A stretch of 64,000 nt of DNA from an uncultured Oscillospiraceae bacterium (GTDB taxonomy: Bacteria > Bacillota > Clostridia > Oscillospirales > QAMX01), in contig CAYUXI010000013.1 in assembly GCA_964448855.1 (NCBI GenBank), positions 674 through 64,673 on the forward strand. Direction: 5' to 3'. A program made the position numbers and the translations under genes. The notes under the pieces were generated by a model. That model did not search any database and had not been told where the DNA came from. It was given only the letters and a program-made list of their open reading frames with translations. Below, one piece after another: positions 53,414-57,437 of the stretch; position 1 is the stretch's first letter; every line of letters starts with the position of its first letter.

Positions 53414-55102
53414 ATGCCATCTATGACCGATCGATTGATGCAGTTTCTTCAGCTGCACGCATCTGCCAAATCCCCTGCAGCGTTGGATGTCGTCGCTTTC
53501 CTGTCCGCACACCGTGTTCCCCTGCCGAGCGCCGCAGCGCCTGAAGATCTGGGTCAGAAAATTCAGCTGATTACGCAGCAGTATGTCCAGACAAAGCTGC
53601 TCAATGCCATGCAGGAGTTGCTTTTGTGTTTCCAATCGCACAGCATCGACATCCTGTTTCTGAAAGGTCCGCTGCTGGGATTGGAGCTGTATGGTGAAAC
53701 CGGAATCCGTCCAACGTCCGATCTCGATCTGTTTGTTCCGGATGCTCAGGTTGCCGATGCGCTGGAGGCATTGACGCAGCTCGGTTATACCCGAACAAAC
53801 GGCACGCCCTACTCCGGGAAGGATCGTGTTTATGACCTGAACCGTGGCGATATGCGTCTGAAAATGATGGGGCGACATCTGACTGCCGTTCGATCTTCCA
53901 AAAACTGGACGATCACGCTGGAATTGCACGCCACGCTGTTTCGGCACTATGATACCGTTTCACCAACCTCTTTGGCATCACAGGCAGACCTGATTGTTTC
54001 TGACAGCCGCACCCTATCCTGTCAGGGGGTTGACTATCCCGTTCCGGGCGTTTTGGATTCGTTCCTGATGCTCTGCACGCACTTTGCACGGCATACGGTG
54101 GAAGCAGTGACCGCATTCTGTGCCAAAAAGCAGCAGCCGCGTTTTCCGCTGCATCAGCTGCATGATCTCGCACTCTTTTTTGAGCACTGGTCGGATGTGC
54201 TGTCAGCTTCCGACCTTTTGGCGCGTGCCATAGCGTTCGGCAGTCAGGCCGATCTGGCATTTGCCTGCCGCTATCTGCAGGAGGTTTACGGAATCGACCT
54301 TTGGCAATCCATTGCCCCTGATCTTTTGGGTGAAGCCGATGATGATTTTGAAAACGATATCGTATGGAGCATTTTGCGGCAGCTTTCCGCCACAGAGCTG
54401 CTGTTTTGCGCACCATCAGACAATCTTGCCCGTTTGAAAAGCGTTGCTCCTGCTCGCCGCTGTTATGAGCTCCAGACCGGGCGCGAGCTTTCTGCCGTTC
54501 TGGCCGACTGCGAGGTTCGGGAGGTCTTTGATGATCCGTCCCGGCCACCTTTGCGGGAGCCTTATTCCTTTCGTTGGGGTGCTGCGCGTTCAGATGATCA
54601 GCTCATGTTTTGCGTGGAAATTCCAACAGAGCGTGTTGTTTTTCTGGAAGGATGCCAGAAAAACTTTCGTCGCAACTGTACCCGCTCCGACTGTCCGAGA
54701 GACTGTGCTGCGCAGCACGGCGCCAACACGCTGATTCGTTTGCTGCTGCCCGGAACCTGCTGTTCAGTCGAGGCCGGAAGCTGCATGAATCGCTATGAAA
54801 TCAGCGTGATCCAGACAGCAGAAGGTCTCCGGATAACCGCAGACCGCAATGGGCATCCATTTGCTCTATCCGGTGCGGCTGTTGCAGAGAAAGATGGCTG
54901 CTGGCAATTTCGGTTTCAGTTGCCGATACCTGATCCCGGCGATTCCAACGCGCTGCCTTTTATGATTTCCCGTGAAATTCTGCTTCCATTTGCTCACCGT
55001 CCGGATCAGGCCATCGCCTTCAGCGTGCGCTGGCTGAACAGTGTGGCGGTTTCACATCAGACCTGTCTGAGCTGCGGGCTGCTGCTGGCATCCCGCCGGT
55101 GA
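53414..55102 (+). CDS. Nucleotidyltransferase family protein (NTP_transf_5-like) with a C-terminal extension
   Basis: FLKGPLLGLELYGETGIRPTSDLDLFV signature, LELH, LCTHFARH, LHDLAL; RBS GAGAGGAG. Confidence 0.8.
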   Translation: MPSMTDRLMQFLQLHASAKSPAALDVVAFLSAHRVPLPSAAAPEDLGQKIQLITQQYVQTKLLNAMQELLLCFQSHSIDILFLKGPLLGLELYGETGIRPTSDLDLFVPDAQVADALEALTQLGYTRTNGTPYSGKDRVYDLNRGDMRLKMMGRHLTAVRSSKNWTITLELHATLFRHYDTVSPTSLASQADLIVSDSRTLSCQGVDYPVPGVLDSFLMLCTHFARHTVEAVTAFCAKKQQPRFPLHQLHDLALFFEHWSDVLSASDLLARAIAFGSQADLAFACRYLQEVYGIDLWQSIAPDLLGEADDDFENDIVWSILRQLSATELLFCAPSDNLARLKSVAPARRCYELQTGRELSAVLADCEVREVFDDPSRPPLREPYSFRWGAARSDDQLMFCVEIPTERVVFLEGCQKNFRRNCTRSDCPRDCAAQHGANTLIRLLLPGTCCSVEAGSCMNRYEISVIQTAEGLRITADRNGHPFALSGAAVAEKDGCWQFRFQLPIPDPGDSNALPFMISREILLPFAHRPDQAIAFSVRWLNSVAVSHQTCLSCGLLLASRR

Positions 55103-55203
55103 AGCTTTCGTCGTTTGCTGCAGCCGCCAATTCGCAAAGCCGAATCGGCTGATTATCGAACCTGTACTCGACACATTTGCCAGACCGGGACATCGCATAT
55201 GAA

Positions 55204-55402
55204 TTGAAGGATTTTTACAATTTTGGTGTTGGTATGGTGGTGTATTTGTGAAAGCGCAGACTGAACCTGTTTCAGGTGATGTCTGCGCTTTTTTCGTTTT
55301 TTTGTAAAGAAACGGCCATACCATTGCACCGACAAGGAATCAATAAGGAGAAGGTCGGATCATGGGAACTGAATGGAAAAAGAGTCGGTATGCATTCTTT
55401 AT
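55204..55402 (+). repeat. Copy 1 of the duplicated rSAM leader plus first 13 codons
   Basis: 55204-55296 matches 55547-55638 (2 substitutions, 1 T indel); 55338-55402 is identical to 55687-55751 (65 bp). Confidence 0.95.
55251..55294 (+). terminator. Intrinsic terminator-like hairpin in leader copy 1
   Basis: AAAGCGCAGAC...GTCTGCGCTTT followed by a T-tract. Confidence 0.7.
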
Positions 55403-55433
55403 GTTTTCTATGTTTCTTTCACTAAGCTCTTGA
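55362..55433 (+). pseudogene. Truncated 5' stub of the rSAM gene (MGTEWKKSRYAFF + 10 unrelated residues)
   Basis: Identical RBS and first 13 codons to the 55711 CDS, then TGA at 55431-55433. Confidence 0.75.
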
Positions 55434-55458
55434 CAGTCGAATGAAAATCTGATATAAT
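55430..55458 (+). promoter_or_regulatory. Perfect-consensus SigA promoter upstream of the rSAM operon
   Basis: TTGACA (55430-55435), 17 nt, TATAAT (55453-55458). Confidence 0.9.
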
Positions 55459-55546
55459 TTAGATAATTAAAGAATTCAATGATTTCATCAGTAAGCAACC
55501 AGATGAGCCCGCACTCAGTTTAGCATGCAAAGAAACCGCATGGTAT

Positions 55547-55751
55547 TTGAAGGATTTTTACAGTTTTGGTGTTGGTATGGTGGTGTATTTGTGAAAGCGC
55601 AGACTGAGCCTGTTTCAGGTGATGTCTGCGCTTTTTCGGGCTTTGCCAAGAAAAATCAAAACCGGTCATACCATTTATCAGCAAGTAATCAATAAGGAGA
55701 AGGTCGGATCATGGGAACTGAATGGAAAAAGAGTCGGTATGCATTCTTTAT
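55547..55751 (+). repeat. Copy 2 of the duplicated leader (the one attached to the intact rSAM gene)
   Basis: See copy 1; contains hairpin 55594-55634, RBS AAGGAG and ATG 55711. Confidence 0.95.
55594..55636 (+). terminator. Terminator-like hairpin inside the rSAM 5' leader (attenuator candidate)
   Basis: 11-bp stem plus T5 between the promoter and the start codon. Confidence 0.65.
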
Positions 55752-57033
55752 TGAGCAGGAAAATGGCGAAATGATCATTTATCATTCGGCAACAGGTTTT
55801 ATCTTACAATGTACAGAACCGGAATACATTGAAAAGGCAGTAAAGATCGCCAATCAATCCGTTTTTGAAATGGATGAAGAAAATGACCTGATGTGTTTGC
55901 TACGAGACAAAGGCGTTCTTTTGGCAAACGATTTTGACGAAGATGCTCAAGTTCGGCAATTGTACGATCGGGTCGTTATGCACAGGAATCAACTTTCTCT
56001 GACATTAATTGTAACGAGGCAGTGTAATTTCCGTTGCGTTTACTGCGGTCAGAAACACGAGAGCAACAAGCGTATGTCTCGTGAAGTCTATGATAGAATC
56101 ATATCGTTGATCGAAAAAACATGCCATGATAAAAAGATAGACAGTGTCTCTGTTTCTTTTTTTGGCGGAGAACCGCTTTTGGAATGTGAAAGAATTCTAT
56201 ATTTTTTGGATAAATTACAGGAATTTTCAAAAAAGACCGGGATTCCCTATTATGCAGGAATGACCACAAATGCATATTTGCTGACGAAAAATAATTTTGA
56301 GCGTTTGGCACAGCTGAATTGTTTGGATTATCAAATAACACTGGATGGTATGGATGAGACTCATGACCAAAAAAGATATCTCATAGGAAAAAGGAAAACA
56401 TGGAAAACCATCGTAGATAATCTGCTCTATATCAAGTCAACAGATTATCCTTTTAAAATCATTTTGAGGACAAATTTCGATACAGAAGTTTTGCAATCAG
56501 TAGATTCTTATTTGAATTTCGTATCGGAAAATTTGAATGATGATCGTATCCTGATGTATCATGAAACCATTAAAGACCACGGGAATCCCGAACAAAACGA
56601 ATACATGTCGCAATCTGAAGCAATTTTCAGCAATGTCGAAATTTCCCGTCTTTTGAAAGAGAAGAATTTGAAATCGTCACTTGTTTTTTCTTCAACAACC
56701 CCTGCCTGTTCGATGTGTCGAGCAGGAATTCCTGATTATTATGTAATCGATTACGATGGAAGTATCAAAAGATGTACTCACCGATTGGATACCGAACCAA
56801 ACTACCTAGGAAATCTGTCAGATGATGGTTCCATGATCATTGACCATTCTCTGGATGCAAAATGGATTTATCGGGACTATTTGTCTGATGATAAATGTAA
56901 AGAGTGCAAATTACTTCCTCTGTGTTTTGGAAAACGTTGTCCTGTTGCGCGGGTAGACCCCCAATTGGCGTTCGACTGTAACAAAGATTTACGTGCTTTG
57001 GAATTGGAGGAAATCCTACGCGTTCATTTGTAA
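55711..57033 (+). CDS. Radical SAM/SPASM peptide maturase
   Basis: CNFRCVYC (CxxxCxxC), FFGGEPLL, TTNAYLL, QITLDG; SPASM Cys ACSMC, KRC, CKECKLLPLCFGKRCP, FDC; ~85-aa N-terminal extension (RRE-like). Confidence 0.92.
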   Translation: MGTEWKKSRYAFFIEQENGEMIIYHSATGFILQCTEPEYIEKAVKIANQSVFEMDEENDLMCLLRDKGVLLANDFDEDAQVRQLYDRVVMHRNQLSLTLIVTRQCNFRCVYCGQKHESNKRMSREVYDRIISLIEKTCHDKKIDSVSVSFFGGEPLLECERILYFLDKLQEFSKKTGIPYYAGMTTNAYLLTKNNFERLAQLNCLDYQITLDGMDETHDQKRYLIGKRKTWKTIVDNLLYIKSTDYPFKIILRTNFDTEVLQSVDSYLNFVSENLNDDRILMYHETIKDHGNPEQNEYMSQSEAIFSNVEISRLLKEKNLKSSLVFSSTTPACSMCRAGIPDYYVIDYDGSIKRCTHRLDTEPNYLGNLSDDGSMIIDHSLDAKWIYRDYLSDDKCKECKLLPLCFGKRCPVARVDPQLAFDCNKDLRALELEEILRVHL

Positions 57034-57074
57034 AGAGACAGGATAAACTATTCAGGAAGAAAGGAGGATCAAGT

Positions 57075-57212
57075 ATGCATGTGATTCAAGATGCAGCGAC
57101 CCCCGCAGTGATTGCACGCAGAGCGCAAAGCAATGGTTGTGATTGCAATTGTGATTGTCATGGTGGTTCCGGTAGCTCCGGGGGAACCAATTGCAATTGT
57201 CATTGCAGCTAA
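57075..57212 (+). CDS. Cys-rich RiPP precursor 1, 45 aa: MHVIQDAATPAVIARRAQSNGCDCNCDCHGGSGSSGGTNCNCHCS
   Basis: Manual translation, not in the ORF track; strong RBS GAAAGGAGG 6 nt upstream; 7 Cys; paralogous to precursor 2. Confidence 0.88.
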   Translation: MHVIQDAATPAVIARRAQSNGCDCNCDCHGGSGSSGGTNCNCHCS

Positions 57213-57246
57213 TCGTCCCAATCTGCACAACAATTTTATTGAAAGG

Positions 57247-57390
57247 ATGAGAAAATACCATATCTTAAAAGACATTACGATTCCTGCGTCCATTGCACGC
57301 AACAACCAGGAAAATGGTTGTGATTGCGATTGTAATGAAGGTTGCAATGGCGGTTCTGCCGGTAGAAATTGCCACTGTCTTTGCAGCTAA
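57247..57390 (+). CDS. Cys-rich RiPP precursor 2, 47 aa: MRKYHILKDITIPASIARNNQENGCDCDCNEGCNGGSAGRNCHCLCS
   Basis: 3' half of track ORF 57112-57390; aligns with precursor 1 in leader and core; start uncertain because GAAAGG abuts the ATG. Confidence 0.82.
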   Translation: MRKYHILKDITIPASIARNNQENGCDCDCNEGCNGGSAGRNCHCLCS

Positions 57391-57397
57391 GCCGTCT

Positions 57398-57437
57398 GTC
57401 ACGGCAGGCAGATTTTTTGAAATCTGCCTGCCGTGAC
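57398..57437 (+). other. 18-bp perfect stem-loop between the precursors and the ABC gene
   Basis: GTCACGGCAGGCAGATTT-tttg-AAATCTGCCTGCCGTGAC; no strong U-tract follows. Confidence 0.85.

What the first reader, a model, noticed from the sequence alone, without database searches (positions are those of the whole stretch)
55547..55700. Candidate new attenuator: 13-codon WW/CxC uORF, terminator hairpin and a covarying outer stem
In both copies GAAGGA is followed 11 nt later by TTG GTG TTG GTA TGG TGG TGT ATT TGT GAA AGC GCA GAC TGA (MVLVWWCICESAD*; 55223-55264 and 55566-55607). This uORF is identical in the two copies and both substitutions fall outside it. Its last codons form the 5' arm of the terminator stem, so full translation should block termination. 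In the otherwise diverged segment both copies keep (C/T)CATACCA (55316-55323, 55666-55673), which pairs with TGGTATGG in the uORF; neighbouring CACCG and TATCA can each pair with TGGTG. Translation-coupled attenuators upstream of Firmicute ABC/ABC-F genes (e.g. B. subtilis vmlR, bmrBCD) are established. A Cys/Trp-sensing or product-sensing control of a Cys-rich RiPP operon is inference.
Basis: partly seen in the sequence, partly recalled or inferred. Interest (0 to 1): 0.65.

Follow-up and report, generated by a model that had tools for sequence, protein, structure and literature searches.

The report
Terminator-bearing leader of a peptide operon
Between a textbook promoter and a radical-SAM peptide operon of a gut Oscillospiraceae bacterium lies a highly conserved G/U-rich tract and strong terminator hairpin, probably an attenuator, but relatives do not conserve the proposed 13-codon Trp/Cys-sensing leader peptide.

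Summary
Both copies carry the TTG..TGA frame, its last codons form the 5' arm of a strong intrinsic terminator (-26 kcal/mol, U5-6), and a downstream CATACCA complement exists.

The two copies are one duplicated unit, so their identity is not independent evidence. Four related lineages were more informative. A 71-nt block (G/U tract plus hairpin) is 71/71 identical in a relative whose flanks are only 69-77% identical. The ancestral-looking form (L057) is promoter, single leader with terminator, then rSAM. No other promoter-like site was seen by eye, so the operon appears to depend on read-through.

The proposed sensor fails. The GAAGGA Shine-Dalgarno exists only in the window's lineage. In the intact L057 locus TGG has become TGA at codon 5 (MVLV*). 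In L061 the middle of the frame is shifted and has no Cys.

The "covarying" outer stem has no pair changed on both sides. Only transitions opposite G/U occur, and for the promoter-proximal copy the duplex is no stronger than background.

No Rfam family, no antiterminator and no informative RNA coverage were found.

Verdict: a probable leader attenuator with an unknown sensor. The Trp/Cys leader-peptide model is not supported, and interest is modest.

The parts
55430..55458 (+). Consensus sigma-70 promoter TTGACA-17-(TG)TATAAT; predicted transcription start about 55465
   Evidence: 12/12 match, extended -10. The -35 and -10 are conserved in L001 and L057, and -10 is TATAAC in the decayed L061.
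55465..55565 (+). 5' part of the leader, 77% identical to L001; no conserved antiterminator found
   Evidence: Pairing of this part with the G/U tract is no better than shuffles.
55566..55592 (+). Invariant G/U-rich tract (UUGGUGUUGGUAUGGUGGUGUAUUUGU), copy 2
   Evidence: Part of the 71-nt block that is 71/71 identical to L001 while the flanks are 69-77% identical. There are few changes in L055, L057 and L061.
55566..55607 (+).
   Evidence: Present. Not conserved as a peptide or as a translated unit in relatives.
55577..55594 (+). Alternative mini-frame ATG GTG GTG TAT TTG TGA (MVVYL*), whose stop abuts the terminator stem; GGUG lies 5 nt upstream
   Evidence: Kept as MVVFL-TAA in L055 and MMVHLH-TGA in L057, and lost in the decayed L061. 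Translation is untested.
55593..55636 (+). Intrinsic terminator hairpin: 12-bp stem, 3x3 internal loop UGA/GAU, 5-bp stem, UUU loop, then U5
   Evidence: -26.3 kcal/mol. Among intact loci only G-U-preserving changes occur. The simple terminator scan missed it because its loop limit is 3-8 nt.
55666..55681 (+). 3' complement of the G/U tract (TCATACCA ... TATCAG), copy 2
   Evidence: Pairing is retained through transitions only, and the energy is not above background for this copy.
55694..55713 (+). Strong RBS (AAGGAGAAGG) and ATG of the radical SAM/SPASM maturase (gene 55711-57033)
   Evidence: SD dG -12.7 kcal/mol.
55223..55293 (+). Copy 1 of the 71-nt block (G/U tract plus terminator), 120 nt after the stop of the nucleotidyltransferase gene; probably serves as that gene's terminator
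   Evidence: The RNA contig of run X21 over the NTase gene stops at 55172, and none covers copy 1.
55316..55332 (+). Copy-1 3' complement (CCATACCA ... CACCGA), 'type A' spacer; forms a strong duplex with the tract
   Evidence: Duplex -27.9/-28.1 kcal/mol, 0 of 1000 and 0 of 500 shuffles as good. The same spacer type precedes the intact gene in L055 (-26.7).
55362..55433 (+). Copy-1 remnant: RBS plus the first 13 codons of rSAM, then an unrelated tail (23 codons); the stop overlaps the -35 box
   Evidence: The tail's frame is not conserved in L001.

Best explanation
The element is the 5' leader of the radical-SAM peptide (RiPP) operon, and it contains a promoter-proximal intrinsic terminator that acts as an attenuator.

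Proposed sequence of events:
- A near-perfect sigma-70 promoter (55430-55458) starts transcription at about 55465.
- After about 100 nt comes an invariant G/U-rich tract, immediately followed by a strong hairpin and U-run (55593-55636).
- By default this should stop most transcripts at about 170 nt.
- The rSAM maturase, the two Cys-rich precursors, the exporter and the kinase are expressed only from transcripts that read through.

The most likely control point is the invariant G/U tract that abuts the 5' arm of the hairpin. Something occupying it would hinder hairpin formation and raise read-through. The occupant could be a ribosome on the 5-6-codon AUG mini-frame that ends at the stem base, or an unknown RNA-binding factor. 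Alternatively the terminator is simply leaky and sets a fixed low ratio.

In read-through RNA the tract can pair with a complement 30-45 nt past the U-run, enclosing the hairpin. This pairing comes too late to influence termination, so it would affect only folding, stability or translation of the full-length mRNA.

Copy 1 (55223-55293) is a secondary partial duplicate that now ends the upstream nucleotidyltransferase transcript.

What is shown: the anatomy, the conservation, and (by eye) the absence of another promoter-like site. What is inferred: that termination happens, that it is modulated, and by what.
For: - Perfect promoter, conserved in L001 and L057.
- Hairpin of -26.3 kcal/mol followed by U5-6 in all intact variants.
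- The block of G/U tract plus hairpin is 71/71 identical between the window and L001. The 100 nt before it are 77% identical, the 74 nt after it 69%, and rSAM third codon positions differ at 12%.
- In L057 and L055 the hairpin differs only by G-U-preserving changes.
- L057 shows the simple form: NTase stop, promoter, single leader with terminator, rSAM. The terminator therefore belongs to the leader and is not just a by-product of the duplication.
- No other promoter-like site between the U-run and the RBS was seen by eye (window; relatives: sequences).
- The block occurs only at this locus: two matches in the window, no foreign contexts in three metagenomes, and the covariance model finds it only in close relatives.
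- The AUG mini-frame with GGUG 5 nt upstream, and a stop at the stem base, is kept in all four intact lineages, including a TGA-to-TAA change and a 1-nt indel that still leaves an in-frame TGA.
- In five of six variants, the 3' strand opposite the tract has 8 transition-only and 0 transversion columns. The unpaired spacer has 13 against 12, plus many indels (my hypergeometric estimate is about 0.015).
Against: - There is no direct RNA evidence. The only metatranscriptome contigs found (X21, X41) do not cover 55173-55697.
- No antiterminator or other alternative fold competing with the hairpin is conserved.
- The whole leader folds no better than shuffles (z -0.85).
- Only four lineages exist, all close, so covariation cannot be tested. 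No pair changes on both sides.
- The mini-frame is lost in L061, although that locus has lost most of rSAM, and its SD is only 4 nt.
- Firmicutes largely uncouple transcription from translation (established knowledge; discussed in PMC9226507). A ribosome would reach the hairpin in time only with RNA polymerase pausing, and I found no conserved TTNTTT pause motif by eye.
- Perfect nucleotide identity of the block could partly reflect gene conversion or recent exchange rather than selection.
Confidence: 0.5

Rival explanations
1. First reader's model. The 13-codon frame TTG..TGA (MVLVWWCICESAD) is translated, and ribosome position on its Trp/Cys codons, or full translation into the 5' arm, decides whether the terminator forms. 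This would couple the Cys-rich peptide operon to Trp or Cys supply.
For: - The frame exists in both copies, and its last four codons are the 5' arm of the hairpin.
- GAAGGA lies 11 nt upstream in the window (dG -6.2 kcal/mol).
- A TTG..TGA frame of 13 codons also exists in L001, L055 and L061.
- The conserved block starts exactly at the TTG.
Against: - The SD is absent in L001, L055 and L057 (dG -1.3 to -1.6 kcal/mol), and none is visible in the L061 sequence.
- The start codon is TTG.
- In the intact L057 locus codon 5 is TGA (MVLV*), 22 nt before the stem, and a 1-nt indel follows.
- In L061 the peptide is MSWYGGAFAWSTD, without Cys.
- L055 has two non-synonymous and no synonymous changes.
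- A ribosome stalled at the Cys codons would cover the 5' arm and raise expression when Cys is scarce. That is the wrong sign for a Cys-consuming product.
Confidence: 0.05
2. No regulation at all. The hairpin is an ordinary, somewhat leaky terminator and insulator that ends the nucleotidyltransferase transcript. It was carried along when the leader was duplicated. The block's perfect conservation reflects gene conversion between copies and recent exchange between strains, and the complement downstream is chance pairing of a promiscuous G/U tract.
For: - Copy 1 sits 120 nt after the NTase stop.
- In L057 I saw no clear terminator between the NTase stop and the promoter, so the leader hairpin is the first one met.
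- Gene conversion is evident: the L001 copies are identical over about 245 bp, and L060's copy 2 carries copy 1's loop variant.
- The G/U tract pairs as well with average genomic windows as with its partner in W2, L001 and L057.
Against: - A plain terminator does not need an invariant 27-nt G/U tract in front of it, nor invariant loops.
- The flanks diverged to 69-77% identity while the block stayed 71/71 identical between two genomes whose genes differ by 6-14%.
- A consensus promoter aimed straight at a strong terminator, with no other promoter seen for the operon, is hard to explain without a role for read-through.
Confidence: 0.2
3. The promoter-to-terminator unit (about 170 nt), and likewise the NTase 3' UTR ending in copy 1, produces a stable small RNA. 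Its conserved single-stranded G/U tract next to the terminator is a seed that pairs with C/A-rich targets, for example the CCAUACCA..CACCGA site in the operon's own 5' UTR.
For: - The architecture of seed plus terminator hairpin plus U-run is typical of 3'-end-defined sRNAs (established knowledge).
- The block is conserved as a module in both copies even where the flanks diverged.
- A strong promoter would make the short RNA abundant.
- The type A spacer offers a -27 to -28 kcal/mol target.
Against: - No RNA contig covers the leader in either metatranscriptome, although short RNAs are usually lost in such libraries.
- No target stands out in the 64-kb window. The best sites are GC-rich coding sequence paired through wobbles.
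Confidence: 0.1
4. The leader is a ligand- or protein-binding structured RNA (riboswitch-like three-way junction). The junction would comprise the outer helix (G/U tract with its complement), the long hairpin with its tandem G-A internal loop, and a small third hairpin. It would control translation or stability of the read-through mRNA rather than termination.
For: - Pairing of the tract with the 3' complement is retained in five of six variants by transitions only.
- The small hairpin after the U-run in type A spacers shows one true compensatory change (CGUUU..AAACG in W1 against CGGUU..AACCG in L055).
- Copy 1 folds far better than shuffles (z -3.6).
- The hairpin loops are invariant.
Against: - There is no Rfam match.
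- The promoter-proximal copy folds no better than shuffles.
- L057 has a rearranged 3' partner.
- The hairpin plus U-run is a textbook terminator.
- There are too few sequences for a covariation test.
Confidence: 0.1

Closest known systems
B. subtilis vmlR leader (short-uORF, ribosome-stalling transcription attenuator; PMC9226507)
   Same: Both are Firmicute 5' leaders with an intrinsic terminator before the first gene. Both have a very short upstream frame (3 codons in vmlR; 5-6 codons for the ATG mini-frame here) with a weak SD. Both are followed by a further structure near the gene's RBS.
   Different: vmlR works through three overlapping structures (anti-antiterminator, antiterminator, terminator) and NusG-dependent pausing at TTNTTT. 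No antiterminator or pause motif was found here. vmlR controls an ABC-F resistance factor, whereas here the first gene is a radical SAM maturase and the ABC protein is an MsbA-like exporter. Translation of any short frame here is untested.
Leader-peptide attenuators of amino-acid operons (E. coli trp/his type) and the pyrBI type, in which a translating ribosome physically blocks the terminator (own knowledge)
   Same: A short frame overlaps the 5' arm of a terminator, as in pyrBI, where close coupling of ribosome and polymerase prevents hairpin formation.
   Different: The regulatory codons (WW, CxC) and the frame are not conserved (L057, L061). The SD is lineage-specific. No 2:3 antiterminator exists. 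The operon consumes Cys rather than making it. Clostridia are not known to rely on tight transcription-translation coupling.
Fixed-ratio internal terminators of RiPP and lantibiotic operons, for example the partial terminator after nisA (own knowledge)
   Same: A hairpin within a RiPP operon sets the ratio of transcripts on either side. This cluster also has such a hairpin after precursor 2 (57398-57437), and run X41 shows an abundant RNA ending there.
   Different: The hairpin studied here lies before the first gene, directly behind a consensus promoter. It is preceded by an invariant 27-nt tract, which a purely stoichiometric terminator would not need.
Uncharacterised premature terminators in Firmicute 5' leaders (survey: PMC2965389)
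   Same: It is a promoter-proximal terminator with a rapidly evolving, unannotated sensor region, confined to a narrow clade.
   Different: Nothing specific: this is the class it most safely belongs to.

Membership tests
Leader-peptide (ribosome-mediated) transcription attenuator sensing an amino acid | A translated leader frame with a start codon and Shine-Dalgarno, conserved among relatives | tested here: not met
   SD dG is -6.2 kcal/mol only in the window lineage and -1.3 to -1.6 in L001, L055 and L057. The frame is cut to 4 codons in the intact L057 locus.
Leader-peptide (ribosome-mediated) transcription attenuator sensing an amino acid | Regulatory codons for the sensed amino acid are conserved in frame | tested here: not met
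   WWCIC in W and L001, WWCFC in L055, none in L057 (MVLV*), and MSWYGGAFAWSTD in L061.
Leader-peptide (ribosome-mediated) transcription attenuator sensing an amino acid | Mutually exclusive antiterminator and terminator pairings | tested here: not met
   RNAalifold and single folds of the leader, with and without the 3' arm, show no conserved competitor of the hairpin. Only a weak 6-bp UUUGUG/CGCAGA alternative appears.
Leader-peptide (ribosome-mediated) transcription attenuator sensing an amino acid | An intrinsic terminator between the promoter and the first structural gene | tested here: met
   Hairpin of -22 to -26 kcal/mol plus U5-6, about 130-170 nt after the predicted start, in W2, L001 and L057.
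Antibiotic-responsive short-uORF attenuators (vmlR, bmrCD type) | A short uORF whose translation is required for induction | not testable with these tools
   A candidate ATG mini-frame (55577-55594) with GGUG 5 nt upstream is kept in the intact lineages. Translation needs toeprinting or reporters.
Antibiotic-responsive short-uORF attenuators (vmlR, bmrCD type) | The controlled gene is a resistance ABC-F or multidrug ABC transporter | tested here: not met
   The first gene is a radical SAM/SPASM maturase. The ABC gene is fourth and MsbA/exporter-like.
Any curated cis-regulatory RNA family (Rfam 15: riboswitches, T-box, protein-binding leaders) | A match to a family covariance model | tested here: not met
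   No match near any gathering score on the window leader or on L057. The best E-values are about 1-7, to unrelated families.
Rho-independent (intrinsic) terminator | A G+C-rich stem-loop directly followed by a U-run, kept by structure-preserving changes | tested here: met
   97-100% of cells are paired in the two hairpin helices. The changes are G-C to G-U and G-U to A-U, with the only break in the decayed L061.
   0 of 14 outer-helix pairs change on both sides, and 342 of 500 shuffles reach the observed share of paired cells. There is only one-sided transition bias.

The most novel reading that the evidence does not exclude
The invariant G/U tract plus hairpin is a new, clade-specific regulatory module for a kinase/nucleotidyltransferase-tailored radical-SAM peptide operon. 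Read-through would be switched by occupancy of the tract, either by a ribosome on the 5-codon AUG mini-frame that ends at the stem base (sensing translation status) or by an unknown factor. The abundant terminated about-170-nt RNA, and the identical module at the end of the NTase transcript, could additionally act in trans on the complement in the operon's 5' UTR.
Probability: 0.15. Interest if true: 0.55.

Novelty: new member of a known kind. Interest (0 to 1): 0.3.

Why it matters
Little is known about how ribosomal peptide (RiPP) clusters of uncultured gut Clostridia are switched on. This cluster has no regulator gene nearby, at least between hprK and clpB, so a cis-acting leader would be its main control. 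Knowing that the operon sits behind a consensus promoter and a strong terminator has a practical use. Anyone trying to express this kinase/NTase-tailored Cys-rich peptide in another host should remove or bypass the hairpin.

For regulatory RNA biology the case is modest. It adds one more unannotated promoter-proximal terminator with a very well conserved flanking tract, confined to a few closely related strains. It also illustrates that a plausible 'leader peptide' read from one genome can dissolve once relatives are compared.

Tried and rejected
- **rSAM protein scans.** These found one close relative in genome contigs (L001) and only 22-30% identical enzymes in metagenome contigs.
- **More distant rSAM homologues.** Homologues at 60-66% identity (L043-L052) have short or unrelated upstream regions and no such leader. 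NTase homologues at 52% (L062, L063) are followed directly by an ABC gene.
- **Upstream pairing of the G/U tract.** RNAalifold suggested pairing with the 5' leader. I rejected it because it is no better than shuffles (fraction of shuffles as good: 0.47-0.91).
- **Trans targets of the tract in the window.** The best sites are GC-rich coding sequence paired through wobbles. I rejected them as background.
- **Longer frames.** A 56-codon frame through the hairpin (55525-55695) and the reverse-strand frames are not conserved outside the block. This was read.
- **Two-layer G-quadruplex, T-box, TRAP/PyrR/RAT-type sites, NusG TTNTTT pause.** I considered these by eye. The G-runs are broken in L057, there is no T-box match in Rfam, and there are no regular triplet repeats or conserved TTNTTT.
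- **Other searches.** blastn against plasmids and phages found nothing. The viral contigs pattern scan gave two chance matches without a hairpin.
- **RNA runs.** Only Logan contigs were available. They do not cover the leader, so they neither show nor exclude a 3' end at 55636.

Full report
**1. What is there**

The region 55190-55760 holds two copies of one unit. The unit consists of a short conserved stretch (TTGAAGGATTTTTACA), a G/U-rich tract, a long hairpin with a U-run, a spacer, a strong RBS, and the first 13 codons of a radical SAM/SPASM maturase. Copy 1 spans 55196-55413 and copy 2 spans 55540-55757. Between them lies a perfect sigma-70 promoter, TTGACA-17-TATAAT with an extended -10, at 55430-55458.

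The genes around it form a RiPP cluster:
- NTP_transf_5 nucleotidyltransferase, ending at 55102.
- rSAM/SPASM maturase, 55711-57033.
- Two Cys-rich precursors.
- An MsbA-like ABC exporter.
- An HprK-like kinase.

The hairpin (55593-55636) has a 12-bp stem, a symmetric UGA/GAU internal loop, a 5-bp stem and a UUU loop, followed by U5. Its energy is -26.3 kcal/mol.

**2. The two copies are not independent evidence**

The same duplication with the same promoter is present in the only close relative in the genome collection. That relative is L001, an uncultured Oscillospiraceae MAG whose rSAM is 94% identical in protein.

Unitigs from three unrelated gut-metagenome studies reproduce the window's arrangement, with the shared pieces at roughly double depth. 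The duplication is therefore real.

I saw the matching single-copy, promoter-less contigs (L053, L054). I cannot exclude that these Logan contigs merely collapse a perfect repeat.

**3. Comparative evidence**

Members of the rSAM 90% cluster and NTase homologues gave six distinct leader variants:
- W2 and W1, the window's two copies.
- L001.
- L055.
- L057.
- L061.

The findings were these.

(a) A 71-nt block runs from the TTG to the end of the U-run. It is 71/71 identical between the window and L001. By contrast, the 100 nt before it are 77% identical, the 74 nt after it are 69% identical, the rSAM gene is 93.7% identical with 12% of third positions changed, and the NTase 3' part is 85.7% identical. 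The block is clearly constrained at the nucleotide level, loops included.

(b) L057 has an intact 440-aa rSAM and shows the simple layout: NTase stop, consensus promoter, one leader with the terminator, then rSAM. The sequence just upstream of its promoter is homologous to the sequence that follows copy 1's remnant in the window. The ancestral state is therefore most simply promoter-leader-rSAM, with copy 1 as a later partial duplicate. I saw no other promoter-like site between the U-run and the RBS in any variant. This was judged by eye: for the window, and the sequences for the relatives. The operon therefore appears to depend on read-through of this hairpin.

(c) The block occurs nowhere else that I could search. 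There are two hits in the 64-kb window and no foreign contexts in the three metagenomes. Covariance model R1 finds it only in the close relatives. There is no Rfam family and no plasmid or phage match. rSAM homologues at 60-66% identity lack the leader.

**4. The 13-codon leader peptide does not hold up**

|---|---|---|---|
| Window (W1, W2) | MVLVWWCICESAD | -6.2 | MVVYL-TGA |
| L001 | MVLVWWCICESAD | -1.6 | MVVYL-TGA |
| L055 | MVLVWWCFCKSAD | -1.3 | MVVFL-TAA |
| L057 (intact locus) | MVLV* | -1.6 | MMVHLH-TGA |
| L061 (decayed locus) | MSWYGGAFAWSTD | none visible (not computed) | lost |

- The GAAGGA Shine-Dalgarno is specific to the window's lineage. L001 and L057 have GAAATG there and L055 has AAACTG.
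- L055 differs by two non-synonymous and no synonymous changes.
- In L057 codon 5 is TGA, which ends the frame 22 nt before the stem, and a 1-nt indel follows.
- In L061 two compensating indels give a peptide without Cys. That locus has lost most of rSAM and is decaying, so it counts for little. L057 is intact and counts fully.
- A stalled ribosome at the Cys codons would cover the 5' arm and raise expression when Cys is scarce. That is the wrong sign for a Cys-consuming product.

I put this model at about 5%.

**5. A different short frame**

In another frame, ATG GTG GTG TAT TTG TGA (55577-55594; MVVYL*) ends exactly at the base of the stem. It has GGUG, which pairs with the CACC of the 16S 3' end, 5 nt upstream. 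It is kept in all four intact lineages, as the table shows, and lost only in the decayed L061.

A ribosome terminating there would cover the 5' arm. This resembles the very short regulatory frames of Firmicute attenuators such as the three-codon MIN frame of vmlR (PMC9226507). There are three caveats:
- The ATG lies inside an invariant tract that may be conserved for other reasons.
- The SD is only 4 nt.
- No pause signal or antiterminator was found.

I treat this as a sub-hypothesis (about 10-15%), not a finding.

**6. The outer stem**

On the six-variant alignment, 91-94% of cells in the two proposed outer helices pair. However, no pair changes on both sides, and the shuffle control does not separate the structure from chance. 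Because the 5' strand is all G and U, any transition on the 3' strand keeps pairing.

The only informative statistic is therefore the kind of change. With L057 left out, the 3' strand has 8 transition-only and 0 transversion columns and no indels. The unpaired spacer has 13 against 12, plus about 15 gapped columns. My hypergeometric estimate is about 0.015, and the columns were chosen post hoc.

Duplex energies split by spacer type:

| Spacer type | Variants | Duplex energy (kcal/mol) | Shuffles as good |
|---|---|---|---|
| Type A | W1, L055 | -27 to -28 | 0 of 500-1000 |
| Type B | W2, L001, L057 | -17 to -20 | p 0.05-0.17 |

The type B values equal the average for any 60-nt window here (-18.2, sd 3.8). 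L057's partner is rearranged. One true compensatory change supports the small hairpin that follows the U-run in type A spacers: CGUUU..AAACG in W1 against CGGUU..AACCG in L055.

So some structure in the read-through RNA is plausible (about 50%), but 'covarying outer stem' is not established. In any case the 3' strand is made after the U-run, so it cannot decide termination.

**7. RNA evidence**

Only Logan contigs of two metatranscriptomes were available.
- **X21** covers the NTase gene up to 55172, then rSAM from 55698, with nothing in between. The rSAM contig crosses the end of the repeat without the branch that DNA unitigs show. Copy 1's continuation is therefore not detectably transcribed, which is consistent with termination at copy 1. 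Coverage is too patchy to conclude more.
- **X41** has a single deep contig at 56948-57394, covering the precursors and ending in adapter just before the hairpin at 57398-57437. It says nothing about the leader.

**8. Conclusion**

The safest reading is a promoter-proximal intrinsic terminator acting as an attenuator of a RiPP operon, with a strongly constrained G/U tract as the likely control point and an unknown sensor (confidence about 0.5).

The rivals are:
- a plain leaky terminator kept uniform by gene conversion (0.2);
- an sRNA-like module (0.1);
- a structured RNA acting on translation or stability (0.1);

The element belongs to a known kind, the uncharacterised premature terminators of Firmicute leaders (PMC2965389), and is confined to a few closely related gut strains. 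I rate interest at 0.3.

Noticed in passing
L058 1501-2824, L059, L060 (window-type strains; homologous to window 55711-57033): In several ENA assemblies that carry the same duplication, the rSAM maturase is called as two pieces (167 aa plus 257 or 282 aa). This suggests a frameshift or nonsense mutation in some natural strains. Cluster members P0121-P0128 are such fragments.
   Followed up: no
L061 4150-4960: In a sister lineage a deletion fuses about codon 57 of rSAM to the C-terminal part of a precursor gene, removing the maturase and a precursor. Its leader is also degraded: -10 is TATAAC, there is an A-C mismatch in the terminator stem, and the U-run is interrupted.
   Followed up: partly
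window 56948-57437: Metatranscriptome run X41 has one deep contig (depth 40) covering exactly 56948-57394, that is the last 85 nt of rSAM plus both precursor genes. It ends in Illumina adapter just before the strong hairpin at 57398-57437. The precursor mRNA therefore looks like a separate abundant species, either from its own promoter inside the rSAM 3' end or from processing, with a discrete 3' end.
   Followed up: partly
L053 and L054 2690-3060: Logan contigs of L001-type strains show NTase, a single leader, then rSAM, without the promoter-bearing insert. This is either natural deletion by recombination between the perfect repeats or assembly collapse. If real, these strains lack the operon's only obvious promoter.
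   Followed up: partly
window 55294-55335 vs 55637-55685; L055 80-150: The spacer after the terminator exists as two alleles. Type A (W1, L055) has a second small hairpin and a very strong complement to the G/U tract. Type B occurs in W2, L001, L057 and L061. The window carries one of each, which suggests recombination between alleles rather than simple divergence after duplication.
   Followed up: partly
window 55362-55433: Copy 1 keeps the strong RBS and 13 rSAM codons, then runs into unrelated sequence. Its TGA stop overlaps the -35 box of the promoter. The tail's frame is not conserved in L001, so it is probably not a functional peptide.
   Followed up: partly
L043 1-7320: The next-nearest cluster (rSAM 66% identical) has a different layout: NTase, glyoxalase-like gene, ABC, rSAM, 40-aa precursor, second ABC, unknown gene, second NTase. 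Only 68 nt lie before rSAM, with no terminator-bearing leader.
   Followed up: no
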